From: Candidatus Nomurabacteria bacterium
Lineage (GTDB): Bacteria; Patescibacteriota; Minisyncoccia; Phycocordibacterales; UBA918
DNA: 64,000 bases
Direction of reading: 5' to 3'
NCBI GenBank assembly: GCA_020632075.1
Contig: JACKGH010000001.1
Location: forward strand, 936,470 to 1,000,469
In this document: one piece after another, positions 9,515-55,254 of the stretch
How the letters are laid out: the number at the start of each line of letters is the position of its first letter
Numbering within the stretch: the first letter of the stretch is position 1
The notes under the pieces: model-generated
Databases searched by the model: none
What the model saw: only the letters and a program-made list of their open reading frames with translations
Told to the model about the DNA's origin: nothing
Made by a program: the position numbers and the translations under genes

Positions 9515-9721
9515 TTAGCGTTCATAAAATAATTCTTCAACCGACACTCCAAGTGCGTACGCAAGCTTTAGGGCCAGCCTGACCGATGGCTCGTAGTTGC
9601 CTTTTTCGATCGAGATTATAGTTTGCCTGGTTACGCCAACAACATCGGCCAGATCGACCTGCGTGAGATCATTCTTGGTGCGGAAAGAGTGTACGTTATT
9701 TTGTAACGGTGATTGTTTCAT
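9515..9721 (-). CDS. XRE-family helix-turn-helix transcriptional regulator
   Basis: LTQVDLADVVGVTRQTIISIEKG is a classic XRE HTH. The protein is 68 aa. Confidence 0.75.
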   Translation of the reverse strand: MKQSPLQNNVHSFRTKNDLTQVDLADVVGVTRQTIISIEKGNYEPSVRLALKLAYALGVSVEELFYER

Positions 9722-24687: not shown

Positions 24688-25308
24688 ATGAAATTTATTG
24701 TAGGAACTAAGACCGGTATGACACAAGTCTTCGATGCAGAAGGTGTGTGTCGTGCAGCAACCGTTCTCAAGGTTACACCAGCGACTGTGTCACAGGTGAA
24801 GACTGAAGAAAAGGATGGCTACGCTGCAGTCCAGCTTGCCTTTGGTGAGCAGAAGGACCACCGTGTCAACAAAGCAACAAAAGGTCACTTCGGCGCGTCA
24901 GTTGCTGGTGCTGTCGAGTTTCGTCCACGTGAAGTGTACGGCGAGACGATCGACGGTGTCGAAAAGGGCGCAACGCTCGATGTGACTGTGTTCGAACCAG
25001 GTGATGACATCTCAGTCTCTGCTACCTCAAAGGGTAAGGGATTCCAGGGTGTCGTGAAGCGTCATGGCTTTGCTGGTGGTCGCCGATCACACGGTCAGAA
25101 GCATTCTGAGCGTGAACCAGGTTCAATCGGAGCAACCGGTAACAATCGCGTTCTCAAGGGAACACGCATGGCCGGACGCATGGGTAGCGATACTGTTACC
25201 GTGAAGGGACTTAAGGTCCTTCAAGTTAATGCAGCCGAAAATACCCTCGTGGTGTCAGGTGCTGTACCAGGTCGAAAGGGAACATTAGTAGAGGTCTACG
25301 GGGCCTAA
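24688..25308 (+). CDS. rplC: 50S ribosomal protein L3
   Basis: FQGVVKRHGFAGGRRSHGQKHSEREPGSIGATGNNRVLKGTRMAGRMG. Confidence 0.95.
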   Translation: MKFIVGTKTGMTQVFDAEGVCRAATVLKVTPATVSQVKTEEKDGYAAVQLAFGEQKDHRVNKATKGHFGASVAGAVEFRPREVYGETIDGVEKGATLDVTVFEPGDDISVSATSKGKGFQGVVKRHGFAGGRRSHGQKHSEREPGSIGATGNNRVLKGTRMAGRMGSDTVTVKGLKVLQVNAAENTLVVSGAVPGRKGTLVEVYGA

Positions 25309-25322
25309 GTAACAAATAGAAT

Positions 25323-26003
25323 ATGGACGCAAAAGTATTTTCTAAAGATGGAAAAGAAACTGGTAAGGTGACCCTTCCAGAAGCAGTGTTCGGGGTTGCT
25401 TGGAATCCAGATCTCGTACACGAAGTAGTTGTTGGTATGCAGGCAAATGCCCGCGAAGGCAACGCACACACAAAGGATCGTTCTGAAGTACGCGGTGGTG
25501 GTAAGAAGCCATGGCGTCAGAAGGGTACCGGTCGTGCTCGTCACGGTTCACGTCGATCTCCGATCTGGACTGGTGGTGGTGTGACTTTTGGACCACGTAA
25601 CGAAAAGGATCATTCAGTGAAGATCAACAAGAAGGTAAAGGCCAAGGCGCTTGCGTCTGTCCTCACCAAGAAGTTGGCTGATGCTGAAGTGATCTTCGTT
25701 GATTCACTCAAGATGGATGAGCCAAAGACCAAGGATGCAAAGGCAGTATTCACTGCAATTGCAACTGGTTCAGGTAACGAAGCAATGGCGCGAAAGCGCA
25801 AGAACGCTGCAGTGGTAGTGCTCGCGGAGCGCAATCTTGCAACTGAAAAAAGTTTCCGAAACTTCGGCAACATCGAAGTCATCCAGGCAAAGGATGTTAA
25901 CCCAGTTGACCTCCTCACTTACAAGTACGTAGTGGTCGCAGATGCACCAGCTGCAGTCGAAGTACTCGCTGGACGTATCGCACCAACTACTAAGTCAAAG
26001 TAG
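25323..26003 (+). CDS. rplD: 50S ribosomal protein L4
   Basis: GGGKKPWRQKGTGRARHGSRRSPIWTGGGVTFGP. Confidence 0.95.
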   Translation: MDAKVFSKDGKETGKVTLPEAVFGVAWNPDLVHEVVVGMQANAREGNAHTKDRSEVRGGGKKPWRQKGTGRARHGSRRSPIWTGGGVTFGPRNEKDHSVKINKKVKAKALASVLTKKLADAEVIFVDSLKMDEPKTKDAKAVFTAIATGSGNEAMARKRKNAAVVVLAERNLATEKSFRNFGNIEVIQAKDVNPVDLLTYKYVVVADAPAAVEVLAGRIAPTTKSK

Positions 26004-26004
26004 T

Positions 26005-26376
26005 ATGGCTCTCTTTGGAAAGAAAAAAGAAACCAAGGAAGAGGCGTCTGTTGAGGCTCCAAAGGCAACTGCTCCAAAAGCACTTGCAACTGACCGAGAC
26101 CTCGCGACTGTGATCGTTGGTCCTCGCATCACTGAGAAGTCAGTGATGATGGGTGACAACAATGTGTACACTTTTACGGTTCGCCGTGATGCAACTAAGT
26201 TTGATGTACGCGATGCAGTGAAGGCCCTCTACAACGTGACGCCGATGAAGGTAAACATCGTGAACAAAAAGCCAGCCAAGCGCATGGTGGGAAGCCGCAA
26301 TCGCGCAAAGCATGTAAAGGGAGTAAAGAAGGCGTACGTGTACCTCAAGAAGGGTGACACGATCAACCTTGTCTAA
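26005..26376 (+). CDS. rplW: 50S ribosomal protein L23 (with Lys/Ala-rich N-terminal extension)
   Basis: VIVGPRITEKSVMMGDNNVYTFTVRRDATKFDVRDAVKALYNVTP. The start is taken at the ATG at 26005 (MALFGKKK). Confidence 0.9.
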   Translation: MALFGKKKETKEEASVEAPKATAPKALATDRDLATVIVGPRITEKSVMMGDNNVYTFTVRRDATKFDVRDAVKALYNVTPMKVNIVNKKPAKRMVGSRNRAKHVKGVKKAYVYLKKGDTINLV

Positions 26377-26463
26377 TCTCTAATTACCAGTTAGGAAGAT
26401 AAGGAGGTAGGGGCGGCGGCTTCGCCACCGCCCAGGCCACCACTATTTTCTAACCATTCAGTT

Positions 26464-27324
26464 ATGAAAAAATATAAACCAACATCAGCGGGTCGTCGTG
26501 ACGGCTCGGTGATCGAGTACAAGAAGAAGCTTTCTTCTACCAAGAGCAATCCGCTCAAGTCGCTCACCAAGGGTAAGCGAAGTACTGGTGGTCGTAACAG
26601 CGCTGGTCGCATTACTACTCACTACCGTGGGGCAGGTAACAAGCGAACCTTCCGCGAGATCGACTTCAAGTACAACAAGAAGGATGTTCCTGCTAAGGTA
26701 GAGACTATCGAGTACGATCCAAACCGTTCAGGTTTCATTGCGCTCGTATGTTACGCCGACGGTGAACGCAGGTACATTCTTGCACCTCGCAACCTCGAGG
26801 TAGGTGATGAGATCATTGTCTCAGAAAAGGCAAAGGTCAAGACAGGTAACCGTTTGCCACTTGCAGCTATCCCAGTTGGTACCTTCGTATACAACGTGGA
26901 GATCAACCCAGGAGCAGGTGCAAAGCTTGGCCGTTCTGCTGGTAACGCGATTGAAGTCGTTGCACAGGACAGCAAGCACACCACCCTCAAGATGCCATCA
27001 ACTGAAATCCGTAAGGTGCTAAACACTGCATGGGCTTCAATCGGTGAGGTGTCAAACGAGGAATACCGTCTCGTGAGTATTGGTAAGGCAGGACGCGCAC
27101 GTCACATGGGTCTTCGTCCGAAGAACCGTGGTGCGGCTCGTAACGCCGTAGACCACCCACACGGAGGTGGTGAAGGACGCTCACCGCGTGGTCATCGCCG
27201 ACAGCGAACCAAGCAGGGTCGTCCAACCGGAAAGGGTCAGAAGACTCGTTCACCAAAGAAGTACTCAAACAAGCTTATTGTTTCTCGCCGCAAGCCAGGT
27301 CGCTTGATGCGGGGAAATAAGTAA
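26464..27324 (+). CDS. rplB: 50S ribosomal protein L2
   Basis: HYRGAGNKRTFREIDFKY... and RNAVDHPHGGGEGRSPRG. Confidence 0.95.
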   Translation: MKKYKPTSAGRRDGSVIEYKKKLSSTKSNPLKSLTKGKRSTGGRNSAGRITTHYRGAGNKRTFREIDFKYNKKDVPAKVETIEYDPNRSGFIALVCYADGERRYILAPRNLEVGDEIIVSEKAKVKTGNRLPLAAIPVGTFVYNVEINPGAGAKLGRSAGNAIEVVAQDSKHTTLKMPSTEIRKVLNTAWASIGEVSNEEYRLVSIGKAGRARHMGLRPKNRGAARNAVDHPHGGGEGRSPRGHRRQRTKQGRPTGKGQKTRSPKKYSNKLIVSRRKPGRLMRGNK

Positions 27325-27465: not shown

Positions 27466-27810
27466 TCACGGATCGCGAGTCCAGAAAATAACGACGAAGG
27501 AGTATATTTTCTGAGAACTTGTGATGTAACAAGTAGTCGTTAGAGATTCTATACAAAACAGCCGCGGGCCCATAGGGCCCGCGGCTGTTTTGTGCTCGTT
27601 CGCTGCCAAGTGTTCTATCTGATCAACTAAGCAAGGCTCAGGTGGTGTTTGCGGTAAATGATATGGCTGTAAGTGGGAGAATTGCACTGAATCTACTGCA
27701 GTACAGCTGTGTGTGGCGACAAATTCAGTCAGGGCGCCATTTAGTCCCTTTGCGAGTCCGAACACGGTAAACAGTAATAACAGAAAAAGAATGCGAATAA
27801 GTGATTTCAT
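27466..27810 (-). CDS. possible small secreted protein (low confidence; ORF reads through a palindromic terminator)
   Basis: A convincing signal peptide (MKSLIRILFLLLLFTVFGLAKG), but the 3' half of the ORF overlaps the GC-rich hairpin at 27558-27588. Confidence 0.25.
   Translation of the reverse strand: MKSLIRILFLLLLFTVFGLAKGLNGALTEFVATHSCTAVDSVQFSHLQPYHLPQTPPEPCLVDQIEHLAANEHKTAAGPMGPRLFCIESLTTTCYITSSQKIYSFVVIFWTRDP
27553..27593. terminator. bidirectional GC-rich hairpin terminator
   Basis: aaaacagccgcgggccc-atag-ggcccgcggctgtttt, with an A-tract upstream and a T-tract downstream. Confidence 0.5.
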
Positions 27811-28027: not shown

Positions 28028-29539
28028 ATGAACGCGTCAGTATCTTTTCGATCACTTCTTGTTTTTATCAGTGTGGCAGTCATTGCTACTTTCTTAGTAC
28101 CGTTTGTGTCGCATGCTCAAACGACCTGTACTTTCACTCGTACACTATCGCTTGGTGATGAGGGTGAGGATGTGCTCTGTCTTCAGAAGTATTTGAATAC
28201 GACTGATCACAAGATCGCGGCGGCTGGTGTTGGCTCGCCAGGAAACGAGACGACTTCGTATGGAAGTCTCACCGAAGCGGCTGTGCTAGCCTGGCAACAG
28301 GCAAATGGTGTAGCAGGAGCAAATGGAAACTTTGGACCTGGCTCACAAGCAAAGTACAAAGAGGTTAGTGCTGCCGCTCCGGTAGCTCAAAACGAAAGTG
28401 AAGTCGATCACCTGCTGAGCATTGTTAGTGGCCTCCAGGCGCAGCTTGACGCGGCTACACCACAGCCAACTGTTCCAGCAACGGTGACTACGCCAACTCC
28501 ACAAGTGGCAGGAGCTTCAACCTACGCGAAAAGCGAAGCGCAGAAGGGAGCTGAGAAGCGCATCATGGATGCGGTCGAGATGATCCTTGACGCGTTTGGT
28601 GAAGTTGATGATCTCCGAGAAGATGATCCAGACGAAGCGTCTGACATTGACGAAGACGTACGCGACGCGATCGAAACGCTCTTTGACTCGCTTGAAAGTT
28701 ACTTTGATGAAGACTACTCTTCGGCCGAAGAAGACGCTGATAGTGCACTTGACGACGCAACAAGTGCCTTTGAAGATGCTGGTGGCGAATCTGATGCGAC
28801 TGAAGCCGAGGATCTGCTTGACGACGTAGAAGATCTCTATGACGACGTGGTAGATCTCTTTGAAGAAGCCGAAGATAAAGATGAAGATACTGGCGATGCA
28901 GAAGATTTGATCGACGAAGCTGCTGATCTCCTTGATGATGCGCAGGAAGCGTTTAAGGACAAGGTGTATCGACAAGCGATCAGTGATGCACTTGATGCGC
29001 AGGAGCTTCTTGAGGATGCAGAAGATGAGATCGATCTCGTTTCCGACAAAGATGCAGAAAAGTATGTTGAAGACATCTGGGATATGTACGATGATGCTGA
29101 AGAAGAGATCGATGATGCAGATGCTGATGGAGAAGATGTTGATGATTCACTCGACTTACTCGATGATGCGAAACGAGCGTTAAAGCGAGCAGATATAGCT
29201 GTCGATGAGGAAGAGTTTGAAGATGCGATCGACGAAGCTGAAGAGGCAGAGGATCTCATTGATGAAGCGCTTGATGCGATCGGTGGTTCAAAGGGAGACG
29301 AGAGTGATGCAGAAGAGGCGCTTGACGATGCATGGAAAGAATACAAGGATGCGCGAGATGAACTGTACAACGCGGAAGACGATGATGAAGATGTTGGTGA
29401 CGCGTGGGATTACCTCGGTGACGCCAAGGATGCACTCAATGACGCAGAAGATGCAATGGAAGATGAGGACTATGATGAAGTAATGGATCTCGTCGACGAT
29501 GCGCTCAAGGCGATCGAGGATGCACTTGATGAGCTCTAA
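28028..29539 (+). CDS. secreted peptidoglycan-binding-domain protein with about 330 aa of D/E-rich helical repeats
   Basis: A signal peptide/TM (LLVFISVAVIATFLVPFVSHA), a PG_binding_1-like motif (LSLGDEGEDVLCLQKYLN...GSLTEAAVLAWQQANG), and then degenerate DD(A/V)EDLxDDxxDxF repeats through the C-terminus. Confidence 0.6.
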   Translation: MNASVSFRSLLVFISVAVIATFLVPFVSHAQTTCTFTRTLSLGDEGEDVLCLQKYLNTTDHKIAAAGVGSPGNETTSYGSLTEAAVLAWQQANGVAGANGNFGPGSQAKYKEVSAAAPVAQNESEVDHLLSIVSGLQAQLDAATPQPTVPATVTTPTPQVAGASTYAKSEAQKGAEKRIMDAVEMILDAFGEVDDLREDDPDEASDIDEDVRDAIETLFDSLESYFDEDYSSAEEDADSALDDATSAFEDAGGESDATEAEDLLDDVEDLYDDVVDLFEEAEDKDEDTGDAEDLIDEAADLLDDAQEAFKDKVYRQAISDALDAQELLEDAEDEIDLVSDKDAEKYVEDIWDMYDDAEEEIDDADADGEDVDDSLDLLDDAKRALKRADIAVDEEEFEDAIDEAEEAEDLIDEALDAIGGSKGDESDAEEALDDAWKEYKDARDELYNAEDDDEDVGDAWDYLGDAKDALNDAEDAMEDEDYDEVMDLVDDALKAIEDALDEL

Positions 29540-29544
29540 GTGGT

Positions 29545-29578
29545 AAAAAACCGGCGGCCCTTCGGGCCGCCGGTTTTT
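29545..29578 (+). terminator. intrinsic terminator
   Basis: aaaaaaccggcggccc-ttcg-ggccgccggttttt. Confidence 0.7.
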
Positions 29579-29605
29579 AATGCGTGATAGTATATCTGTA
29601 TAGTT

Positions 29606-30892
29606 ATGGAAGAAATGAATAATAGCCAGACACCAAGGATCGAAGGTGGACCAGACACTTCTGCAAAATTTGATCAGAATGATCTCCAGGAAGTACAGGC
29701 GGGGGAGGGTAAACATGTAGATGCGGAGCTAGAAAGAGATGAACCAGATGAAGTGAGTAGAGAAGTATCGTATGATCAAGATAATACTAATCTAGAGAAG
29801 GCTGCGGAAATTGAGCGTCAGGAAAGTCTAGACGTGACCCGTATGTGGTATGAACGTGCATGTGATCAGGCGCAATCATATATTGACGCTCACGGGTATC
29901 TGTACGATGTTTCTTATTATGATGCAGAAGTCAAACTAGATAATGGTGAGGTGACAGAAAGTTTGGTACTTCGTTTTTCGCATCGTACTGGAGGCACCGC
30001 TAAAGACTGGACGATGTCGATTAAGATGACTGATGAGTATTTGGACGATCAATTTGAAACAGTGATCGAACACGTTATTCTAAGTAAAAATTTTGAAACA
30101 GAAATAGATGAGCGATCTGAGGGGGGAGATGATGGATTTGGAGAGCAGGAGTTTGAGGAACTAAAGGGTAAAGACCGAGACAAGACAGGAGAAGAGTTGG
30201 CGCTGCTCAAGCAGACGAATGAAGATATAAATCGACTGAGGACTGAATATGGCCTGTCAGAATTTATTGTTCCGGAACGTGCAGTGCATGTGATTAAACA
30301 AGAACATTGGGTCTTAAATGAAAAGGCGATTTATAATCCTCGTCTCAAAGGTATTGGGATAAGAGAGACGCCAGCAAACATTGTTTTTTATGCTCTAGCA
30401 ACACACGAATCGTTACACGCCAATGTCAACAATTATTTACTGCCAATCATGTTAACTGAGGCGTTAGTTGAGGCAACTACTATCGAGATGGTTAGGAATC
30501 AGCGTAATGCTACGATTGACCGCGATAGGAAGAATGCTAATGCAGTAATGTGGCAGCATGAAGATGCTCTAAACGAATATGGTGATCCTCTCTATTCGGA
30601 AGAAACATACTATGCATATGTTGATGATGTTGGTCAGTTGCGATCAATTGAGTTCGGGTATCAATTAGAGCGAGATGCCTTGCAAATGTTGCTGAAAAAA
30701 GTGGTAGAGCGAGATGGTGGAGTAAGGTTCAAAGATGAAAAGGAAGTGCAGAAAGAACTATTACATGCACTCATGGCAGACGATCCTAGTATGCTCAATT
30801 TCATTAATGATCTGTTTGGTTCAGACGCAATGGATAAATTGCAGTTTGCTCAAAGCGCACGTGATCTACTAAGGATCGTAGCTGAATTGTAG
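29606..30892 (+). CDS. hypothetical protein with HExxH motif (candidate zincin-like metallopeptidase); acidic N-terminus, no signal peptide
   Basis: ALATHESLHANVNNYLLPIMLTEALVE contains HESLH, and a Glu about 18 residues downstream is a possible third ligand. The protein is 428 aa. Confidence 0.4.
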   Translation: MEEMNNSQTPRIEGGPDTSAKFDQNDLQEVQAGEGKHVDAELERDEPDEVSREVSYDQDNTNLEKAAEIERQESLDVTRMWYERACDQAQSYIDAHGYLYDVSYYDAEVKLDNGEVTESLVLRFSHRTGGTAKDWTMSIKMTDEYLDDQFETVIEHVILSKNFETEIDERSEGGDDGFGEQEFEELKGKDRDKTGEELALLKQTNEDINRLRTEYGLSEFIVPERAVHVIKQEHWVLNEKAIYNPRLKGIGIRETPANIVFYALATHESLHANVNNYLLPIMLTEALVEATTIEMVRNQRNATIDRDRKNANAVMWQHEDALNEYGDPLYSEETYYAYVDDVGQLRSIEFGYQLERDALQMLLKKVVERDGGVRFKDEKEVQKELLHALMADDPSMLNFINDLFGSDAMDKLQFAQSARDLLRIVAEL

Positions 30893-30906
30893 AGTTTCAG
30901 TATGGT

Positions 30907-31209
30907 TTGAAGGGTCACCGGTTATTTTTATGCATGCTACCATACAGCCACATGAAAAAGTTACTGCAGAAACTGTTTGGTACACATCGTGAGTTTGTGG
31001 GTAATTTTATTGAGACGGGTGAAGCGTTGATTGCATTGGCTGCGTCAAATCAGATCGTCGCAGCAGAGCTTGAAGATTTCTCACAGAAGGCACGCACACT
31101 AAAAAGTGACAACTTATTGGAAGCTGCGGAATTGTCAGCCAATGCGCTTAGTGGTTATGGTATCTCGGTGCGATCAAAGGCATTTTTGGAAACCTTGACG
31201 GAGGAGTAG
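30907..31209 (+). CDS. small hypothetical protein (true start possibly the internal ATG, MKKLLQ)
   Basis: Lies 15 nt downstream of the HExxH gene and is followed by a strong terminator. Confidence 0.35.
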   Translation: MKGHRLFLCMLPYSHMKKLLQKLFGTHREFVGNFIETGEALIALAASNQIVAAELEDFSQKARTLKSDNLLEAAELSANALSGYGISVRSKAFLETLTEE

Positions 31210-31210
31210 T

Positions 31211-31247
31211 CAAAACAGGCCGGTCCCGAAGGGACCGGCCTGTTTTG
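31211..31247 (+). terminator. intrinsic terminator
   Basis: caaaacaggccggtccc-gaag-ggaccggcctgttttg. Confidence 0.7.
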
Positions 31248-31276
31248 ACAGTATTTGCGTGCTACACTAAAAATAC

Positions 31277-31699
31277 ATGCAACGGCTACTTCCATTTCTT
31301 TTTCTGTTTGGTGTCATACTGGTAACGTCTGTTATTTCGCTGCTTGCTTCGTGGCTGCTTACACATGTGGCTGGTGTAAGTACCGCTGCACCACTTCGAT
31401 ACGCAACTATGTTTGCTGAGTTGTTGGCTTGGTTGTTCTCACTCACCGTTGCGTTTTATCTGGCAGCAGAAACAAAACTCTTATACACCCACGCTTTGCC
31501 GAAGGGTTTTGGGCTGTACATTGCATTTGGTTTTCTGTGTGTGCAGCTTGCTTTTTTAATGGTGTTACCGATCACGCTTGGTTCCATGAATGTGTTCGCC
31601 TTTTTTACAGTATCAAGTTTGGTTTACATTGCTGGTTCGTTTGTGATAACAGCTCTGTACACCAGCTTCCTGTTACGAAAATTTCAAGTGAACACTTAA
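31277..31699 (+). CDS. membrane protein (4 TM)
   Basis: A 140-aa protein that is hydrophobic throughout. Confidence 0.45.
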   Translation: MQRLLPFLFLFGVILVTSVISLLASWLLTHVAGVSTAAPLRYATMFAELLAWLFSLTVAFYLAAETKLLYTHALPKGFGLYIAFGFLCVQLAFLMVLPITLGSMNVFAFFTVSSLVYIAGSFVITALYTSFLLRKFQVNT

Positions 31700-32013
31700 G
31701 TCCCCGGTTTTCGTTCGCGCTCTTTAAAGGTAAACTCACGTAATTTCTTGCTGGCTTTGAGTGTCGCGAAGATGGCTTCTGATCGCTTTGTCGTATGTAC
31801 GGCAACTTTCTGCGCACTCTGTCCACTAATAATGAGTTCAAAGCCAGCGTTTGTGTATACACAGGTCACAAACCGTCCGCTGGCGCCACGCGCATTGGTA
31901 CGGATCTCGCCGGGGGCGATCATTTTGATTCCAGGAATTTTCTCAAGCTCACGCACGACAAATGTCGCAGTTTCGGTAAGGGTGCTGTGTTCTCGTCCGC
32001 GGGATCGGGGCAT
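31696..32013 (-). CDS. hypothetical small protein
   Basis: A 105-aa ORF convergent with the previous gene. It is preferred over the overlapping plus-strand ORF 31748..32098 only weakly. Confidence 0.3.
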   Translation of the reverse strand: MPRSRGREHSTLTETATFVVRELEKIPGIKMIAPGEIRTNARGASGRFVTCVYTNAGFELIISGQSAQKVAVHTTKRSEAIFATLKASKKLREFTFKERERKPGT

Positions 32014-32122
32014 ATGGGGTAGGGTAGCACTAATTTATAAAAAAGGTCCAGGAATTTTGCCTAGGAAAGGGCTAAATTCTGACATAAATTCACAATAGTC
32101 GCTGCGCTTGTTTGTTCATTTA

Positions 32123-32155
32123 AAAAAGCCGGAAGCGCGCGAACGCGTTTCCGGA
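32123..32155 (-). terminator. intrinsic terminator for 32162..32452
   Basis: The minus strand reads ccggaaacgcgttcgcgcgcttccggctttttt. Confidence 0.55.
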
Positions 32156-32452: not shown

Positions 32453-32539
32453 GACGTACCCCTTTAGTTACGTGCCTTTAAAATTTATATCGTATAATAT
32501 ACTACATGTCAATGTTATTCGGTGTAGATGGTTTGACTT

Positions 32540-32879
32540 TCCAGCGTATTTCCGGTATTCTCATGCCGTTCCAACCTCAAGTCGTTTCCCTGGCAGGAAA
32601 CGCATGAAATACGAACGAAGTAGGTGACCACAAGAGAAATCTGGCCGTTACCAGGATTCTCGGGAATCTCACAAGCCGCCACTGACGGTGCGAATGCACT
32701 AGCTACAAGCGGTATTTACTAACAACAAAGCTACACAAGCATTTTTTGCTGTAGTGCAGCTTTACATTAATTTGGATCGTGGTGGTTTTTGGATTTATGG
32801 TTCCAGGAATCGGCGGCGGGCTAAAGCCGCCGATTCGGAACTAAGTTCTGAATAGTCGCTACGCTCCTTTCATCACTTA
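32540..32879 (+). other. long structured 5' leader of the rpsS-...-rplE operon
   Basis: About 340 nt without a credible ORF. Hairpins cgtttcc-ctggca-ggaaacg and gaatcggcggc-gggctaaa-gccgccgattc (32818-32848). Confidence 0.3.
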
Positions 32880-33206
32880 ATGTCACGATCATTATATAAG
32901 GGACCGTACGTAGACGAACGTCTCCTCAAGAAGATCGCCGGGAAGAAGCCCGGAGAAGGCGGTGTCATCAAGACTTGGGCTCGAGGCTCAGTGATCTCTC
33001 CAGAAATGGTAGGATTCACCTTTGGTGTACACAACGGCCGCGATCACATTGAAGTACTGGTTGCAGAAGAAATGGTGGGCCACAAGTTCGGTGAATTTTC
33101 ACCAACGAAGAAGTTCTGGCGCCACGGAGGTAAGATGCAGAAGGAACTTGATCAGAAGAAGAAGGAAGCTGAAATTGCAGCTGCTAAGGCTGCTAAGGCT
33201 GCGTAA
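32880..33206 (+). CDS. rpsS: 30S ribosomal protein S19 (with Lys/Ala-rich C-terminal extension)
   Basis: [16 protein letters not shown]...[25 protein letters not shown]. Confidence 0.95.
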
Positions 33207-33218
33207 TAAGACTGATAT

Positions 33219-33545
33219 ATGAAAGCAATTCTCAAAAACTATCGTCAGTCTCCACGCAAGGTTCGTCTTCTCGCAGATCTTGTACGCGGTAAAAAAGCAA
33301 CTGACGCACTTACCACACTCCGTTTTGTAGACAAGCGAGCATCTGGTCCATTTGCAAAGGTGATCTCATCAGCGATTGCAAATGCCAAGCAGCATGGCGC
33401 AAAGGAAGAAGAGCTCTTTATCAAGGCTGTACAGGTCAATAAGGCTCCTACTTTCAAGCGCTTCATGCCACGAGCTCGTGGTTCTGCATCACGAATTAAC
33501 AAGCGTAACAGCCACATCTCAGTTGAGCTGGGCGTAAAGAAATAA
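33219..33545 (+). CDS. rplV: 50S ribosomal protein L22
   Basis: AILKNYRQSPRKVRLLADLVRGKKATDALTTLRF. Confidence 0.95.
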   Translation: MKAILKNYRQSPRKVRLLADLVRGKKATDALTTLRFVDKRASGPFAKVISSAIANAKQHGAKEEELFIKAVQVNKAPTFKRFMPRARGSASRINKRNSHISVELGVKK

Positions 33546-33549
33546 GGAT

Positions 33550-34257
33550 ATGACACACGTAGCACATCCATATATTCAACGCATTGGTGTAAACCGTGAC
33601 TGGAAGAGTCGTTGGTTCACAACAAGTCCGGAGAAGTTCCGCGAATACCTCCGCGTTGATGCTGCGCTCCGCAAGATGCTCAAGACACGCCTCAAGGGTA
33701 TGTCAGTTGATGCGGTTGAAATCGAACGCAGCGAAAAAGATATTCGTATTATTATCAAGACTTCACGTCCTGGTCTTATCATCGGACGAAGCGGTGAAGG
33801 TATCTCAAACCTGAAGAAGGAGATCGATCTGTTCTTGCGCAAGCAGAAGATGACCGACAAGCCTGAACTCAAGATCGATATCGAAGAGATCCGTTCACCA
33901 GAATCATCAGCTCGCATCGTGGGCCAGATGATCGCTGAAGGTCTTGAAAAGCGCATGACATTCCGTCGTGTGATGAAGCAGACCGTTGAAAAGGTAATGG
34001 CTAACCGTGACGTTGAGGGTGTACGTATCATCCTTTCTGGTCGACTCGGTGGTGCTGACATGGCGCGCAAGGAGGAGCTTAAGAAAGGACGTATTCCACT
34101 GCAGACACTCCGCGCTGACATTGACTTCGCTCGAGTTGAAGCAAATCTCCCATATGGTGTGATCGGTATCAAGGTATGGATCTACCGTGGAGAAGTATTC
34201 GCAGATCGTAAGGCAGGTCAGGAAGCACAGGAAGCACGCCAGAATCGTAATCGATAA
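33550..34257 (+). CDS. rpsC: 30S ribosomal protein S3
   Basis: A KH domain plus a C-terminal S3 domain (IRIIIKTSRPGLIIGRSGEGI...ILSGRLGGADMAR). Confidence 0.95.
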   Translation: MTHVAHPYIQRIGVNRDWKSRWFTTSPEKFREYLRVDAALRKMLKTRLKGMSVDAVEIERSEKDIRIIIKTSRPGLIIGRSGEGISNLKKEIDLFLRKQKMTDKPELKIDIEEIRSPESSARIVGQMIAEGLEKRMTFRRVMKQTVEKVMANRDVEGVRIILSGRLGGADMARKEELKKGRIPLQTLRADIDFARVEANLPYGVIGIKVWIYRGEVFADRKAGQEAQEARQNRNR

Positions 34258-34266
34258 TCACTGCGT

Positions 34267-34701
34267 ATGTTATTCCCAAAGAAAGTTAAGCACCGCAAGT
34301 GGCAGATCGGTCGAAAGAACGAAGAAAAGCTCAATCGACCAGATACCCGTGGTATCACCGTGTCATACGGTTCATACGGGCTCAAGGCTACTACTGCGTC
34401 ACGTGTGAAATCAAACCAGATCGAAGCTGCTCGTCGTGTGATTTCTCGTACGATGGGTAAGACTGGTAAGTCATGGATCCGTATCTTCCCAGATCGTCCA
34501 GTAACCAAAAAGGCTGCTGAAGTACCGATGGGTAAGGGTAAGGGTGATCCAGATCACTTCGTATTCGAAGTACGCCCAGGCCGAATTCTCTTCGAGATCG
34601 AGGGTGTACCTGAAGACATTGCTCGCGAAGCCTTCCGTAAGGCAACTGCGAAGCTCCCATTACAAGCTAAGTTCGTGCGTCGCGAAGATACAAGAGTGTA
34701 A
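34267..34701 (+). CDS. rplP: 50S ribosomal protein L16
   Basis: MLFPKKVKHRKWQ...KGKGDPDHFVFEVRPGRILFEI. Confidence 0.95.
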   Translation: MLFPKKVKHRKWQIGRKNEEKLNRPDTRGITVSYGSYGLKATTASRVKSNQIEAARRVISRTMGKTGKSWIRIFPDRPVTKKAAEVPMGKGKGDPDHFVFEVRPGRILFEIEGVPEDIAREAFRKATAKLPLQAKFVRREDTRV

Positions 34702-34731
34702 AGACACTCTTGTATCGGGTCTAATTCAAAA

Positions 34732-34938
34732 ATGATTATGACAAAGATGGAAGACATCAAGAAAAAGTCTGATGCAGAATTGACCGAATTGGTTCAGTCT
34801 GCTCGAGAGACCGTGCGTCAGGAACGTTTTAAGGATAAGTTCAGTCGCAAGGCTAGTGTGATCCAGGGCAACAAGCTCGAGATCGCTCGCGCCCTCACTG
34901 AGCTATCTGCTCGCCGACGTAACCCACAAACTAAATAG
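34732..34938 (+). CDS. rpmC: 50S ribosomal protein L29
   Basis: KSDAELTELVQSARETVRQERFKDKFS. Confidence 0.9.
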   Translation: MIMTKMEDIKKKSDAELTELVQSARETVRQERFKDKFSRKASVIQGNKLEIARALTELSARRRNPQTK

Positions 34939-34941
34939 CGT

Positions 34942-35193
34942 ATGAGTACCGAAACAAAAAGTAACGGTCGTGTGCTCCGCGGTACAGTAGTTGCATCTAA
35001 GATGACTGACACCTGTACTGTCGCAGTAGAGCGATACGTGAAGCACCCAAAGTACAAAAAGTTCATGCGTCGCACGAAGAAGTACTTAGTGCATGACGCT
35101 GGGAACACCGCCAAGGTAGGCGACAAGGTCGAAATTGTAGAAGTTAAGCCGATCTCAAAGCGTAAAAGCTTTAAGCTCGTAACCAGCAAGTAG
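34942..35193 (+). CDS. rpsQ: 30S ribosomal protein S17
   Basis: LRGTVVASKMTDTCTVAVERYVKHPKYKKF. Confidence 0.95.
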   Translation: MSTETKSNGRVLRGTVVASKMTDTCTVAVERYVKHPKYKKFMRRTKKYLVHDAGNTAKVGDKVEIVEVKPISKRKSFKLVTSK

Positions 35194-35194
35194 T

Positions 35195-35566
35195 ATGATT
35201 CAGCCACAGACACTCGTGAAGATCACCGACAACTCAGGTGGTAAGATGGGCCGAGTCTTTAAGGTACTTGGCGGTTCAAAGAAGCGCTATGCTGAACTCG
35301 GCGAGATGGTGGTACTTGCGGTCCAGACTGCAGAACCACGCAAGCAGGTAAAGAAGAAGGATGTCGTGTACGGAGTAATTGTGCGTCAGCGCAAGCCATT
35401 CCGTCGTAAGGATGGTTCATATGTAAGCTTCGATGACAACGCCGTAGTGCTTGTCGACAAGGAGAAGAAAGAACCAAAGGCAAACCGCGTGTTTGGTCCA
35501 ATCCCACGTGAGCTCGCCGAAGCAGGTTATCAGAAGATCGTCTCACTTGCCCCAGAGGTGGTGTAA
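35195..35566 (+). CDS. rplN: 50S ribosomal protein L14
   Basis: MIQPQTLVKITDNSGGK. Confidence 0.95.
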   Translation: MIQPQTLVKITDNSGGKMGRVFKVLGGSKKRYAELGEMVVLAVQTAEPRKQVKKKDVVYGVIVRQRKPFRRKDGSYVSFDDNAVVLVDKEKKEPKANRVFGPIPRELAEAGYQKIVSLAPEVV

Positions 35567-35587
35567 CGAATAATCTAAGATAATCCT

Positions 35588-35899
35588 ATGAAGATTCGAA
35601 AAGGAGATACTGTCAAAGTAATCGCTGGTAAGGACAAAGGAAAGACCGGAACCGTGCTGATGACCATCAAGGAGACCGAACAGGTAGTCATTGAAGGTGT
35701 GCACGAAGTGAAGCGTCACCAGAAGAACCGCCGTATGCGTTCACAGGGACAGATCGTTGAAAAGAGCATGCCGATCCACGTTTCAAACGTTGCGCTCATG
35801 GAAGGTGACAAGACCGTACGTGTTGGGTACACCTTTGAAGGAGAAGGCGAGAAGCGAAAGAAGGTTCGTGTTGCACGACCAAGTGGAAAGAAAATTTAA
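35588..35899 (+). CDS. rplX: 50S ribosomal protein L24
   Basis: A KOW motif (KIRKGDTVKVIAGKDKGKTGTV). Confidence 0.95.
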   Translation: MKIRKGDTVKVIAGKDKGKTGTVLMTIKETEQVVIEGVHEVKRHQKNRRMRSQGQIVEKSMPIHVSNVALMEGDKTVRVGYTFEGEGEKRKKVRVARPSGKKI

Positions 35900-35945
35900 A
35901 TTAACATTTAATTTTGGAGCCTGAATGCTGAGTGAATTTCGCGAA

Positions 35946-36006
35946 GCGGTGGCTGCGGACGAGAGAAACGTACAGTTCGTACGATGACCGAGGACGCAGC
36001 CACCGC
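35946..36006 (+). promoter_or_regulatory. stem-loop in an unusual 180-nt spacer between rplX and rplE (12-bp perfect stem, about 37-nt loop)
   Basis: gcggtggctgcg (35946-35957) pairs with cgcagccaccgc (35995-36006). Confidence 0.45.
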
Positions 36007-36078
36007 GAGAAAGTACCCCAGGGTATTTTCTCTTGCTACGCAATTCACCTTAAAATTCGCTGGCAGACAGCTCCCAAA

Positions 36079-36633
36079 ATGGGTATGGAAACAGTACAGA
36101 CTCAATTGAAGACAGTATTCGATTCTCTCAAGGGAGAATTCGGATACGCAAACGTTCATCAGGCACCAACGATCGAAAAGGTAGTGGTGTCTGTAGGAAC
36201 TGGTCGTGTAGACGACAAGCAGAAGATCGCGCTTATCCAGGACCGTCTTGCACAGATCACTGGACAGAAGGCCGCTCCTCGAGCAGCTCGTCAGTCAATC
36301 GCATCATTCAAGCTTCGCGAGGGTGATACGATCGGCTACCAGGTAACCCTTCGTGGTGCACGCATGAATGACTTCCTCAACAAGCTCATCCACATCGCAT
36401 TGCCACAGACTCGTGACTTCCGCGGTCTCAAGACCTCATCGATCGATGAAATGGGTAACTACACACTGGGTATCAAGGAACACACGATCTTCCCTGAAAC
36501 TCACGATGAAGAACTTAAGGATGTCTTTGGTATGTCGATCACGATCGTGACCACTGCCAAGACCAAGCCAGAAGCAGAAGCGCTTCTACGTCATGTAGGA
36601 ATGCCACTCCAGAAGGCAGACGAAGCAAAATAA
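36079..36633 (+). CDS. rplE: 50S ribosomal protein L5
   Basis: ANVHQAPTIEKVVVSVGTGR...TLRGARMNDFLNKLI. The start is taken at the ATG at 36079/36085, not the ORF-track start at 35932. Confidence 0.95.
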   Translation: MGMETVQTQLKTVFDSLKGEFGYANVHQAPTIEKVVVSVGTGRVDDKQKIALIQDRLAQITGQKAAPRAARQSIASFKLREGDTIGYQVTLRGARMNDFLNKLIHIALPQTRDFRGLKTSSIDEMGNYTLGIKEHTIFPETHDEELKDVFGMSITIVTTAKTKPEAEALLRHVGMPLQKADEAK

Positions 36634-52624: not shown

Positions 52625-52810
52625 ATGGCTAAAAAGTCAATGATCATCAAGGCGCAACGAGCGCCTAAGTTCAAGTCACGTGTCGTACGACGCTGTACAC
52701 TTTGTGGACGTCCACACGGCTACCTTCGTGACTTCGGCATGTGTCGTATTTGCTTCCGTGAACAGGCACACGAAGGACATATACCAGGCGTAAGGAAATC
52801 ATCATGGTAG
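52625..52810 (+). CDS. rpsN: 30S ribosomal protein S14, zinc-binding type Z
   Basis: 61 aa; [23 protein letters not shown] has four Cys. Confidence 0.9.
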
Positions 52811-53199
52811 GCGATACTATTGGCGATCTCATCATTCGCCTGAAGAACGCCGGTGCAGTGAATAAGGATACTGTTTCAGCTCCGTATTCAAAGCTCCGTT
52901 TAGCAGTTCTCACAAAGCTTGCAGATGCTGGCTACATTGAGTCAGTAACTGAAAAGGGCAAGCAGGTACAAGAAAAAACCCTCGAAGTGACACTTCGCTA
53001 CGAGAATGGTTCACCACGCATCAGCGGCGTGAAGCGTATCTCAAAGCCAGGTCGACGTCTCTACACGAAGGTGACGGATCTTCATCCGGTTAAGTTTGGA
53101 AAGGGGCACATGATCCTCTCAACTCCAGCAGGTATCCTCACCAATGAGGAAGCCAAGGAGAAGAAGGTGGGTGGTGAGCAGCTTTTCATTATTTGGTAA
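52804..53199 (+). CDS. rpsH: 30S ribosomal protein S8
   Basis: [16 protein letters not shown]...[30 protein letters not shown]. Confidence 0.95.
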
Positions 53200-53203
53200 G
53201 CGT

Positions 53204-53737
53204 ATGTCACGACTAGGAAAACAACCAGTGGCCATCCCAAGCGGGGTTGAGATCAAGCTTGAGAATGGTGTACTGACAGTGAAAGGTCCAAAGGCGACAC
53301 TTTCACGACCAGTGCGTGAGCAGGATGTGACTTTCACGATTGAAGGAAACACCATCACGCTTGAACCAACCAAGACCGAAGCAGCTCCAGCAATGTGGGG
53401 GACCTATGCTGCGCACGTGCGCAACATGATCACTGGTGTTACTGAAGGATACGAAAAGATCCTTCAGATCGAAGGTGTGGGGTACCGCGCTGAGGTAAAG
53501 GGTAACGAGATCGTCCTCAACGTAGGATTCTCACACCCAGTACCACTCACTATTCCAGAAGGAATTTCTGCAGAGGTAGTGAAGAACGAGATCAAGCTCA
53601 CTGGATCAGACAAAGATGCACTCGGACAGTTCGCTGCCAACGTGCGTAAGGTGAAGAAGCCTGAGCCATACAAGGGTAAGGGTATTCGCTACCAGGGAGA
53701 ATTCATTATTCGCAAGCAAGGTAAGAAGGCTGTATAG
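53204..53737 (+). CDS. rplF: 50S ribosomal protein L6
   Basis: [31 protein letters not shown]. The start is taken at the ATG at 53204. Confidence 0.95.
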
Positions 53738-53748
53738 GCTACTCATAT

Positions 53749-54099
53749 ATGGAAAAGTCACAATACAAAACACAGATGCGTGCCAAGCGACACAATCGTT
53801 TGCGTCACAAGGTATCTGGTACAGCTGCACGCCCTCGCTTGGCTGTATTTCGTAGCAATAAGTTTGTGTACGCACAGCTTATTGATGACACAGCAGGAAA
53901 GACCATTGCGTCTGCAGATTCTCGCAAGGGTGCAAAAGGCACCGCAGTAGAGAAAGCAAAGGCAGTTGGTACTGAGATCGCAAAGAAGGCAAAAGACGCA
54001 AAGATCGAAACAGTAGTCTTCGACCGCGGTGGCTTCCAGTACGCTGGAATTGTCGCTGCACTCGCAGACGCTGCTCGTGAAGGAGGACTCCGCTTCTAG
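53749..54099 (+). CDS. rplR: 50S ribosomal protein L18
   Basis: [20 protein letters not shown]...[12 protein letters not shown]. Confidence 0.95.
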
Positions 54100-54136
54100 A
54101 TAGTGCGGAATATTACTAAAATCTAAACATTGCAAA

Positions 54137-54784: not shown

Positions 54785-54787
54785 TCT

Positions 54788-55237: not shown

Positions 55238-55254
55238 GCGATAAGATACAGCTT

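What the first reader, a model, noticed from the sequence alone, without database searches (positions are those of the whole stretch)
29606..31699. HExxH-motif protein followed by two small genes: candidate metallopeptidase/toxin-like module
The 428-aa protein has an acidic N-terminus, no signal peptide and an HESLH motif (THESLHAN) with a Glu about 18 residues downstream (TEALVE), which is a gluzincin-like spacing. It is followed by a 100-aa protein and a 4-TM protein, each with its own terminator. The layout is reminiscent of effector plus immunity/accessory arrangements, but nothing here is a recognized family.
Basis: inference. Interest (0 to 1): 0.5.

Follow-up and report, generated by a model that had tools for sequence, protein, structure and literature searches.

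The report
Stand-alone zinc peptidase, newly inserted gene
The 428-residue protein belongs to an uncatalogued family of thermolysin-type zinc peptidases seen so far only in the tiny 'candidate phyla radiation' bacteria, but it is a lone gene sitting between two unrelated neighbours, not part of a toxin-plus-immunity set.

Summary

The 'effector plus two small genes' reading is not supported. None of about 45 distinct homolog loci has a relative of either small gene nearby. The '100-aa' gene is really 85 aa. In the three related genomes sampled it starts 1-3 nt after the stop of the upstream acidic peptidoglycan-binding protein, and no peptidase is present. In this genome a 1.4-kb, low-GC segment (terminator plus peptidase gene) lies between that conserved gene pair. 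The substrate is unknown. The whole block interrupts the ribosomal-protein operon between rplB and rpsS.

The parts
29606..30892 (+). Gene for the 428-aa predicted zinc metallopeptidase (p428).
   Evidence: ORF. Identical to NCBI KC877_04380. 148 homolog clusters. AF2 model pLDDT 85.
29606..29770 (+). Residues 1-55: acidic N-terminal tail, predicted disordered and poorly conserved.
   Evidence: pLDDT below 50 for residues 1-55. Residues 1-75 have 22 D/E against 7 K/R. This stretch is variable in alignment A2.
29774..30091 (+). Residues 57-162: accessory domain with a long helix, three strands and a helix (motifs WYE-A, WTMSI, DEY-L). It is present only in the query clade.
   Evidence: Secondary structure. 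Invariant Y82, A85, A89, L122, W135, M137 and Y145 in A2. The domain also occurs as stand-alone single or tandem proteins P0120, P0135, P0136, P0044, P0077, P0096 and P0130.
30128..30889 (+). Residues 175-428: catalytic core shared with the roughly 310-aa short-form family. It comprises the conserved EREKT-type segment, a backing helix, a small beta-sheet, the HExxH helix, the Glu helix and a C-terminal helical bundle.
30404..30418 (+). Codons for H267-E268-S-L-H271 (HExxH): two predicted zinc ligands and the catalytic base.
   Evidence: Read directly from the sequence. Invariant in 65 and 102 sequences. Lies in predicted helix 258-273.
30458..30472 (+). Codons for E285-A-L-V-E289. E285 is the predicted third zinc ligand. 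E289 occupies the position of thermolysin Asp170.
   Evidence: E285 is invariant and E289 at least 90% conserved. Lies in helix 281-298. The family consensus LNEAVTEE resembles the thermolysin NEAISD motif (resemblance from established knowledge).
29540..30951 (+). 1412-nt segment present here but absent between the orthologous gene pair in related genomes. It holds a terminator hairpin, the peptidase gene and a 59-nt tail.
   Evidence: In L054/55/56, L057 and L058 the p503-homolog stop is 1-3 nt from the p85-homolog start. The peptidase gene has GC 0.419 and GC3 0.357, against 0.501 for the window.
29546..29578 (.). Perfect 15-bp hairpin with flanking A and T runs. It is a terminator-like element after the 503-aa gene and lies just upstream of the peptidase gene.
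   Evidence: Inverted repeat I9. Sequence.
28028..29539 (+). Upstream neighbour p503, not part of the peptidase. It has a signal peptide, a PG_binding_1 domain and a roughly 340-aa helical region with 43% D/E.
   Evidence: Pfam PF01471 at E 1.2e-6. Hydrophobic residues 1-31 and composition. Homologs of 55-58% identity in L054 and L057.
30952..31209 (+). p85, a conserved 85-aa soluble protein. Elsewhere it is the operon partner of p503, not of the peptidase.
   Evidence: Ten homolog clusters at 51-64% identity. Each sampled homolog lies directly after a p503 homolog.
31209..31249 (.). Perfect 19-bp hairpin, a terminator-like element after p85.
   Evidence: Inverted repeat I3.
31277..31699 (+). 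p140, a protein with about four membrane segments and a promoter-like site of its own. It has no detectable relatives in any fetched locus.
   Evidence: Hydropathy. TTGACA-18-AAAAAT at 31245-31274. No BLAST hits in 57 loci.
31696..32013 (-). DUF2103 protein (105 aa), convergent with p140. Conserved next to p85 in relatives.
   Evidence: Pfam PF09876 at E 4.8e-7. 71-76% identity in L054/55 and L058.

Best explanation
p428 is a soluble, most probably cytoplasmic, zinc-dependent metallopeptidase of the gluzincin type. It belongs to a family that no curated library covers and that has been seen so far only in CPR/Patescibacteria.

Predicted mechanism (inferred from the thermolysin/M1 paradigm):
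- H267, H271 and E285 hold one zinc ion.
- E268 activates the zinc-bound water.
- E289 supports the site in the way Asp170 does in thermolysin.
- The conserved strand just before the HExxH helix (IGIRE, residues 250-254) would line the substrate cleft.
- Conserved Y352/R356 or H228 could stabilise the transition state.

The query clade carries an extra N-terminal alpha/beta domain. That domain also exists as a separate protein, so I take it to be a substrate-recognition or regulatory module.

The gene works on its own. It is not a module with the downstream genes. It lies on a 1.4-kb low-GC segment between two genes (p503 and p85) that form a tightly coupled pair in related genomes, so it was most likely gained by horizontal transfer.

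Its physiological substrate is unknown. My best guess is a substrate-specific processing or regulatory endopeptidase rather than a bulk peptide-scavenging enzyme, because the family is patchy, changes neighbourhood freely, and in one subclade is translationally coupled to a small XRE-type regulator.

Shown here: family membership, motif invariance, fold, absence of export signals, absence of conserved partners, and the gene's absence from this position in related genomes.

Inferred: metal, chemistry, cellular location, direction of the insertion event and substrate class.
For: Family and motif:
- Exhaustive phmmer found 148 representatives at E<=1e-3, 54 of them at E<=1e-10.
- HExxH is present in essentially every member whose sequence covers the catalytic region.
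- The invariant columns are exactly H267, E268, H271 and E285 (A1, 65 sequences; A3, 102 sequences).

Fold:
- AF2 models have mean pLDDT 85.3 (core above 93) and 95.4 with pTM 0.92. Both show the HExxH helix followed by a Glu helix.

Location:
- None of 146 family sequences that start with Met has a signal-peptide-like or membrane-like hydrophobic stretch.

Stand-alone gene:
- Only the peptidase itself is shared among 51 loci.
- p85, p140, p503, DUF2103 and p96 have no relatives next to any homolog.

Insertion:
- p503 and p85 homologs are adjacent (1-3 nt apart) in L054/55/56, L057 and L058, and an hmmsearch with the family profile finds no peptidase there.
- p428 has the lowest GC and GC3 among the 15 genes measured around it.
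- The same gene order appears in an independent NCBI assembly contig, so it is not a chimera of one assembly.

Taxonomy:
- Named sources are Kaiserbacteria, Paceibacterota, Moranbacteria, Parcubacteria, Saccharibacteria and Spechtbacterales.
Against: - There is no biochemical evidence of any kind.
- I could not inspect model coordinates, so the geometry of the proposed zinc site and the roles of E190, K193, H228, Y352 and R356 are untested.
- The direction of the event is not proven. The four lineages are about equidistant (L2 87-88% identical), so a single loss in an ancestor of the other three is not excluded by parsimony alone.
- 'Only in CPR' rests on the few sources that carry names.
- The substrate-class guess rests on weak context evidence.
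Confidence: 0.7

Rival explanations
1. One reading: the peptidase is a toxin or effector, and the downstream 85/100-aa and 4-TM proteins are its immunity or accessory partners, together forming one module.
For: - The genes lie on the same strand at short spacing.
- The peptidase and p85 share the terminator at 31209-31249.
- The gene is low in GC and looks acquired.
- One distant homolog (P0102, 1375 aa) carries the domain at the C-terminus of a giant protein, two genes upstream of a DUF87/TrwB-like ATPase gene. This layout is reminiscent of C-terminal toxin domains.
Against: - No relative of p85 or p140 lies near any of about 45 distinct homolog loci, including six members of the query's own clade: L002, L014, L015, L016, L017 and the P0004 contig.
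- p85 is conserved without the peptidase, fused in operon with p503 in the three other lineages sampled.
- p140 has a promoter-like site of its own and no relatives in the fetched loci.
- The peptidase has no signal peptide or recognisable trafficking domain.
- PADLOC gives no hit.
Confidence: 0.05
2. It works like ImmA/IrrE: a signal-activated protease that cleaves an XRE-family repressor, or the toxin half of an Xre-metallopeptidase TA-like pair. Here the regulator would be encoded elsewhere.
For: - In a subclade of short-form homologs (L003, L018/19/20, L021, L025, L032) a 68-71-aa HTH_3/XRE gene ends 3-8 nt upstream on the same strand. L021 also has a second copy downstream of the peptidase gene.
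- A query-clade member (L017) has a 316-aa protein with an XRE-like N-terminus 210 nt upstream.
- The window encodes a related XRE protein at 9515-9721.
- ImmA/IrrE (M78, COG2856) are HExxH metallopeptidases that cleave XRE repressors (abstracts of PMC6868357 and PMC12828697).
Against: - No XRE gene is adjacent to p428. The nearest lies 20 kb away.
- XRE adjacency is confined to one tight clade (70-92% identity) and is missing in some of its members: L007, L022, L030, L033 and L038.
- The adjacent XREs are bare 68-aa HTH domains. They lack the C-terminal domain that IrrE cleaves in DdrO (PMC12828697 abstract).
- Pfam Peptidase_M78 does not match any of 65 members at E<=0.01.
Confidence: 0.12
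3. It is a housekeeping peptide-scavenging enzyme (an aminopeptidase or oligopeptidase) that supplies amino acids to an auxotrophic CPR cell, as M1 or M3 enzymes do elsewhere.
For: - The best structural neighbours are M1 aminopeptidase catalytic domains, with 175-195 aligned residues.
- The family is cytoplasmic and soluble.
- A mostly conserved Glu sits on the strand before the HExxH helix (IGIRE here, GVAMRE in P0014). This recalls the GxMEN strand of M1 (resemblance only).
Against: - There is no GxMEN motif and no M1 N- or C-terminal domains, and Pfam gives no hit.
- The family looks patchy and mobile: variable neighbourhoods, a low-GC gene here, and 70-92% identical copies in unrelated contexts. 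This is unlike a core metabolic enzyme.
- Two members have lost the catalytic residues.
- M1 proteins dominate the solved gluzincins (my own knowledge, not measured here), so their top rank may partly reflect sampling.
Confidence: 0.15
4. It is an HExxH metal-dependent enzyme that is not a peptidase (for example a YbeY-like nuclease or an HExxH oxygenase/hydroxylase), or an inactive pseudo-peptidase that serves only as a binding protein.
For: - Pseudo-peptidase members exist in the family: P0091 and P0146 have FRGMVQ/FRAMVQ and NDA.
Against: - p428 keeps all four catalytic residues.
- The third ligand is Glu on the next helix, the gluzincin signature. YbeY uses a third His.
- Higher-ranking and longer structural matches are all peptidases.
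Confidence: 0.05

Closest known systems
M1 aminopeptidases / leukotriene A4 hydrolase (MEROPS clan MA(E), gluzincins)
   Same: - HExxH helix followed by a helix that carries the Glu ligand.
- A beta-sheet subdomain precedes the active-site helix.
- A conserved Tyr lies about 85 residues after the first His in p428 (Y352). LTA4H has Tyr383 at +88 from His295 (from established knowledge; the equivalence is untested).
   Different: - No sequence similarity detectable by HMMER.
- No GxMEN motif.
- The His-to-Glu spacing is 13 residues here and about 41 in short forms, not 18.
- It lacks the M1 N-terminal beta-sandwich and C-terminal ARM-like domains.
- It is much smaller: a core of about 250 aa.
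Thermolysin (M4), with the related collagenases (M9) and lugdulysin/hyicolysin (M30)
   Same: - The family consensus LNEAVTEE has the same N-E-A-x-x-acid pattern as thermolysin NEAISD. There Glu166 binds zinc and Asp170 supports His142 (established knowledge).
   Different: - Those enzymes are secreted with pro-domains. This family has no signal peptide.
- No Pfam match.
- p428 itself has T, not N, before the Glu (LTEALVE).
- The C-terminal subdomain is a different helical bundle.
ImmA/IrrE metallopeptidases (M78, COG2856) with XRE repressors
   Same: - Small cytoplasmic HExxH metallopeptidases.
- A subclade of this family is preceded by a small XRE gene in the same operon-like layout.
   Different: - Pfam M78 does not match.
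- It is not a close structural neighbour.
- No XRE gene lies next to p428.
- The adjacent XREs elsewhere lack a cleavable C-terminal domain.
Minigluzincins (selecase, proabylysin, projannalysin)
   Different: - They are only about 100 residues long.
- This family adds a conserved N-terminal segment (EREKT), a beta-hairpin insert in most members and a roughly 130-aa C-terminal helical domain.
Polymorphic-toxin / effector metallopeptidase domains with downstream immunity genes
   Same: - An HExxH domain with variable genomic context.
- One homolog (P0102) has the domain at the C-terminus of a 1375-aa protein.
   Different: - No trafficking or secretion domain in p428.
- No co-conserved downstream gene.
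- The supposed immunity gene belongs to another operon.

Membership tests
Gluzincin metallopeptidases (clan MA(E)) | HExxH motif located in an alpha-helix and conserved in homologs. | tested here: met
   HESLH is residues 267-271 in predicted helix 258-273. H, E and H are invariant in 65 and 102 sequences.
Gluzincin metallopeptidases (clan MA(E)) | Third zinc ligand is a Glu on the helix that follows the HExxH helix. | tested here: met
   E285 is invariant and lies in helix 281-298. The equivalent E165 of P0014 lies in helix 161-181. Actual ligation was not checked on coordinates.
Gluzincin metallopeptidases (clan MA(E)) | Zincin fold: a beta-sheet and backing helix before the active-site helix. 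| tested here: met
   [not shown]
Gluzincin metallopeptidases (clan MA(E)) | Zinc binding and zinc-dependent peptide hydrolysis. | not testable with these tools
   Needs purified protein, metal analysis and activity assays.
M1 aminopeptidases | GxMEN exopeptidase motif, HExxH-x18-E spacing and a match to the Peptidase_M1 profile. | tested here: not met
   No Pfam hit for p428 or for 65 homologs. The spacing is x13 here and about x41 in short forms. No GxMEN motif; the nearest is IGIRE/GVAMRE.
ImmA/IrrE (M78, COG2856) | Match to the M78 profile, and an adjacent or fused XRE-family HTH partner. | tested here: not met
   No PF06114 hit at E<=0.01 in any of 65 members scanned (p428 itself none at E<=1). 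No XRE gene lies next to p428; the nearest is at 9515-9721. XRE adjacency is seen only in one subclade of short forms.
Effector/toxin-immunity module | A downstream small gene (or genes) co-conserved with the toxin gene across genomes. | tested here: not met
   No p85 or p140 relatives in about 45 distinct peptidase loci. p85 is conserved with p503 in loci that lack the peptidase.
Effector/toxin-immunity module | A secretion signal or trafficking domain on the toxin. | tested here: not met
   No hydrophobic N-terminus in p428 or in any of 146 family members. No Pfam domain. Non-classical export cannot be excluded.
Pfam DUF6782 (putative metallopeptidase) | Profile match above the gathering score (27 bits). 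| tested here: not met
   Only 2 of 65 members give sub-threshold hits, best E 0.0021. In P0098 the sub-threshold hit (16.3 bits) falls on a second, C-terminal HExxH region rather than on this family's domain.
Phage or plasmid cargo gene | Relatives present on phage, viral or plasmid records. | tested here: not met
   No relatives in IMG/VR, INPHARED phages or PLSDB plasmids. No PHROG hit.

The most novel reading that the evidence does not exclude
The family is a horizontally mobile, CPR-specific effector peptidase. It would have no classical signal and would be exported by the pilus or type-IV-like machinery that these episymbionts carry. It would act on proteins of the host cell or of competitors. 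Its stand-alone N-terminal alpha/beta domain would serve as a targeting or inhibitor module. This would explain four observations: the patchy distribution, near-identical copies in unrelated neighbourhoods, the low-GC gene here, and the C-terminal fusion to a giant protein two genes upstream of a DUF87/TrwB-like ATPase gene (P0102).
Probability: 0.08. Interest if true: 0.6.

Novelty: new variant of a known kind. Interest (0 to 1): 0.3.

Why it matters
CPR/Patescibacteria genomes consist largely of proteins with no assigned function. This work adds a confidently modelled catalytic family to that dark matter. It has at least 148 clusters at 50% identity, an invariant HExxH+E active site, and no entry in Pfam, NCBIfam or the PDB. 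In MEROPS terms it would be a new family in clan MA, with a high-confidence model and clear mutational targets.

It is not a new principle of catalysis and its substrate is unknown, so the direct impact is modest.

The case also carries a practical lesson. Same-strand small genes after an enzyme gene looked like a module. Comparison with relatives showed that the enzyme gene lies inside someone else's operon.

The side observation may interest people who use ribosomal-protein synteny for binning and phylogeny of CPR genomes. The ribosomal-protein super-operon here is broken by three large blocks, and at least one of them is conserved among relatives and appears to have its own restart promoter and structured leader.

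Tried and rejected
- The word-indexed protein search with p428 returned only itself. With the 65-sequence profile it returned only two proteins. It was useless for this family; the exhaustive HMMER search was needed.
- PDB sequence searches with p428, A1 and A3 gave only chance matches: DUF427, designed miniproteins and CD81.
- Foldseek against the PDB gave nothing significant. The weak dsRBD-like and HPF-like hits to the N-terminal domain (probability 0.2-0.77, E>0.3) were not pursued.
- The afdb50 library was unavailable.
- The full 65-sequence alignment had no conserved stretch usable for locus scans, so the 11-sequence clade alignment was used instead.
- Mobile-element idea for the 5.5-kb rplB|rpsS block: no flanking repeats beyond a weak 48-nt, 75% direct repeat. 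The NCBI contig ends (window about 27559 and 32937) do not coincide with the block ends. I read them as assembly breaks, not excision junctions.
- Phage or plasmid origin: rejected.
- Defence-system membership: no PADLOC hit.
- A conserved-neighbour search across 51 loci found only antisense shadow ORFs of the peptidase gene, a PilM/FtsA-like gene in 3-4 loci at variable distance, and the XRE gene in one subclade.
- A literature search found no description of this family or of the operon interruption.
- I first thought P0102 had membrane segments. The hydropathy scan did not support this.
Full report
**1. What is at the coordinates.**
- The window carries an ATG-to-stop ORF of 428 aa at 29606-30892 (+).
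- It is identical to a protein annotated only as 'hypothetical protein KC877_04380' in a Candidatus Kaiserbacteria MAG.
- The same gene order is present on an independently assembled 5.4-kb NCBI contig.
- HESLH is residues 267-271, and the Glu of TEALVE is E285.
- The N-terminal 75 residues are acidic, and the protein has no hydrophobic segment.
- Downstream lie a small ORF and a 140-aa protein with about four hydrophobic segments.
- The small ORF is 85 aa, not 100. Gene callers and all homolog clusters fit the ATG at 30952.
- Only this 85-aa gene is followed by a terminator hairpin (31209-31249). The hairpin at 29546-29578 precedes the peptidase gene. The 140-aa gene overlaps the convergent DUF2103 gene by 4 nt.

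**2. The protein is a member of a real, uncurated family.**
- Pfam, NCBIfam, PADLOC, PHROGs and PDB sequence searches give nothing for p428.
- The word-indexed search found only the protein itself.
- Exhaustive HMMER against 1.84 billion cluster representatives found 148 proteins at E<=1e-3. Ten of these (P0002-P0011) are near-full-length relatives at E 1e-35 to 1e-104. About a hundred are proteins of roughly 310 aa that match residues 155-420.
- HExxH occurs in nearly every member whose sequence covers the catalytic region, typically near residue 120 of the short forms.
- In alignments of 65 and of 102 sequences the only invariant columns are H267, E268, H271 and E285. F178, E190, K193, P223, H228, W235, A286, E289, Y352, R356, L359 and G405 are at least 90% conserved in the 65-sequence alignment; E289 and R356 are among those also at least 90% conserved in the 102-sequence alignment.
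- The family consensus reads ...EREKT...NIHII...HEMLHFKSYN...YRxGL...LNEAVTEELTK...FxYxxER...
- The query's clade lacks a roughly 28-residue hairpin between the HExxH and the NEA motif.
- None of 65 members hits any Pfam family above threshold.
- Two members (P0091, P0146) have lost the motif (FRGMVQ, NDA) and look like pseudo-peptidases.

**3. Fold.**
- An AlphaFold2 model of p428 built on the 65-sequence alignment has mean pLDDT 85 (core above 93). It is disordered only at residues 1-55 and 163-173.
- It shows helix 258-273 (HExxH) followed by helix 281-298 (E285, E289). A backing helix (195-214) and a small sheet come before them.
- A second model, of the short form P0014 on 102 sequences, reaches pLDDT 95.4 and pTM 0.92 with the same core.
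- The zincin/gluzincin fold is therefore supported, but the family has no close solved relative.
- The consensus N-E-A-x-x-E mirrors the thermolysin NEAISD motif (Glu166 as ligand, Asp170 in support). This is established knowledge used as an analogy, not a tested equivalence.

**4. Architecture of p428.**
- Residues 1-55 form an acidic disordered tail.
- Residues 57-162 form a helix, three strands and a helix, with invariant Y82, A85, A89, L122, W135, M137 and Y145 within the clade.
- This domain also occurs as stand-alone single proteins (P0120, P0135, P0136) and as tandem proteins (P0044, P0077, P0096, P0130). It is therefore an independent module.
- I infer a recognition or regulatory role for it, without direct evidence.
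- Residues 175-428 are the catalytic core.

**5. Distribution and location.**
- Sources that carry names are Kaiserbacteria, Paceibacterota, Moranbacteria, Parcubacteria, Saccharibacteria, Spechtbacterales and 'bacterium' MAGs. All the named ones belong to the Patescibacteria/CPR groups.
- None of 146 family sequences has a signal-peptide-like or membrane-like stretch.
- No relatives were found in IMG/VR, phage or plasmid collections.

**6. Testing the 'module'.**
- I collected 51 loci that encode homologs: contigs for P0003, P0014, P0029, P0102, P0006, P0007 and P0009, plus 7 genome loci and 37 metagenome loci.
- BLAST of p85/p100, p140, p503, DUF2103, p96 and p114 against all ORFs of these loci gave no hit next to any peptidase.
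- All-against-all clustering of neighbours found nothing shared except the peptidase gene and its antisense shadow ORFs.
- The neighbourhoods of six query-clade members all differ.
- From the other side, p85 has ten homolog clusters at 51-64% identity.
- In all three independent related genomes I could retrieve, the p85 homolog starts 1-3 nt after the stop of a homolog of p503. These are L054/55/56, L057 and L058. p503 is the upstream signal-peptide, PG_binding_1, hyper-acidic protein (55-58% identity).
- Two of those loci show the pair directly downstream of rplB (87% identical to the window's L2). In L054/55 it lies upstream of rpsS, with the DUF2103 gene alongside.
- The family profile finds no peptidase in those loci.
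- So p85 belongs with p503. In the window a 1412-nt segment (29540-30951) separates the two. It holds a terminator hairpin, the peptidase gene and 59 nt.
- The peptidase gene has the lowest GC (0.419) and GC3 (0.357) among the 15 genes measured around it. The window mean GC is 0.501.
- The four lineages are roughly equidistant. Gain here is favoured by composition and by the absence of this context for any other family member, but an ancestral loss is not formally excluded.

**7. What it most likely does.**
- The chemistry follows the gluzincin paradigm. Zinc is held by H267, H271 and E285, and E268 acts as general base. This is inferred.
- For biology, the evidence is thin.
- Against a housekeeping scavenging role:
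  - the patchy, context-free distribution;
  - copies 70-92% identical in unrelated neighbourhoods;
  - the low-GC gene here.
- One tight subclade of short forms has a 68-71-aa XRE/HTH_3 gene ending 3-8 nt upstream. This recalls ImmR-ImmA, DdrO-IrrE and Xre-COG2856 pairs.
- That pairing is inconsistent within the clade. The XREs are bare HTH domains, M78 profiles do not match, and p428 has no adjacent XRE.
- One distant member is the C-terminal domain of a 1375-aa protein encoded two genes upstream of a DUF87/TrwB-like ATPase gene. Another is fused to a second HExxH domain.
- I therefore commit to 'stand-alone cytoplasmic gluzincin, probably a substrate-specific processing or regulatory endopeptidase'. 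My confidence in the enzyme class is high. My confidence in the substrate class is low.

**8. Comparison with known systems and novelty.**
- It works like a gluzincin. It is not a member of M1, M4, M9, M30 or M78 by any sequence test run here.
- In MEROPS terms it would be a new family of clan MA, with its own conserved N-terminal segment, a hairpin insert and a C-terminal helical domain. I rate it a new variant of a known kind.
- The effector/immunity reading is not supported.
- Interest is modest. It is a solid annotation gain for CPR dark matter, but there is no new principle and no known substrate.

**9. Context noticed on the way.**
- The gene sits in a 5.5-kb block that interrupts the S10 operon between rplB and rpsS.
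- Two further blocks, of 10.6 and 16.2 kb, separate rpsJ from rplC and rplE from rpsH.
- The rplB|rpsS interruption is conserved in relatives.
- It is followed by a conserved promoter-like site and a structured leader of about 320 nt before rpsS. The leader folds with z -6.8, shows 7 compensatory pairs in three sequences, and has no Rfam match.

Noticed in passing
window 9941-56532: The ribosomal-protein super-operon is split by three blocks of non-ribosomal genes. The order is fusA-tuf-rpsJ (to 14036), then 10.6 kb, then rplC-rplD-rplW-rplB (24688-27324), then 5.5 kb, then rpsS...rplE (32880-36633), then 16.2 kb, then rpsH...secY (52804-56532). In the relative L054 the rpsJ-rplC gap is only about 0.7 kb.
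   Followed up: partly
window 28028-29539, 30952-31209 and 31696-32013; L054 4241-6404, L057 1520-3267, L058 1-1090: A conserved non-ribosomal cluster sits between rplB and rpsS in several related genomes. It encodes a secreted PG_binding_1 protein with a roughly 340-aa tail of 43% Asp/Glu. An 85-aa protein is translationally coupled to it (1-3 nt apart in relatives). A convergent DUF2103 gene follows in three of the four lineages sampled (the window, L054/55 and L058). Function unknown; it could be a wall-anchored polyanionic protein.
   Followed up: partly
window 32533-32879; L054 7478-7793; L058 3735-3865: A conserved non-coding element lies upstream of rpsS. It has a promoter-like TTGACT-17-TATTCT followed by a leader of about 320 nt. 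The leader folds far better than shuffles (z -6.8) and shows 7 compensatory pairs among three sequences. No Rfam match even at E<=1.
   Followed up: partly
window 32076-32123 and 32833-32880: A 48-nt direct repeat of 75% identity. The second copy abuts the rpsS start codon and the first lies beside the terminator of the 96-aa gene. It could be chance or a duplicated upstream region.
   Followed up: no
L003 3658-3780, L018 4691-4906, L021 145-351 and 1540-1746, L025 256-462, L032 4703-4909; window 9515-9721 (-): In one subclade of short-form peptidases a 68-71-aa XRE/HTH_3 gene ends 3-8 nt upstream of the peptidase gene; L021 also has a second copy downstream. The window has a related XRE gene 20 kb away. 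The XREs are only 37-60% identical to one another, while the peptidases are 75-92% identical.
   Followed up: partly
proteins P0044, P0077, P0096, P0120, P0130, P0135, P0136; window 29774-30091: The N-terminal alpha/beta domain of p428 (motifs WYEKA, WTMxI, DEYL) exists as stand-alone single-domain and tandem-domain proteins. It appears to be an uncharacterised independent domain. Foldseek gave only weak dsRBD-like and HPF-like hits.
   Followed up: partly
proteins P0091 and P0146: Two family members have FRGMVQ/FRAMVQ in place of HExxH and NDA in place of NEA. They are probable pseudo-peptidases within an otherwise strictly conserved family.
   Followed up: no
L006 6817-13696 (P0102); P0098: A 1375-aa protein carries the peptidase domain at its C-terminus. 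Its gene lies two genes upstream of a DUF8128/DUF87/TrwB-like ATPase gene. Another member (655 aa) is fused to a second HExxH region with a sub-threshold DUF6782 match.
   Followed up: no
L003, L007, L018, L033 and others: Short-form peptidases from different metagenomes are 70-92% identical yet sit in unrelated gene neighbourhoods. This suggests either strong constraint or recent horizontal spread.
   Followed up: no
window 27466-27810 (-) and 27553-27593: A 114-aa ORF with a signal-peptide-like N-terminus contains a perfect 19-bp terminator-like hairpin inside its 3' part. The NCBI contig JAGQMK010000071.1 starts within this hairpin. The ORF may be shorter than listed or not a gene. It has no relatives in the related loci.
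   Followed up: no
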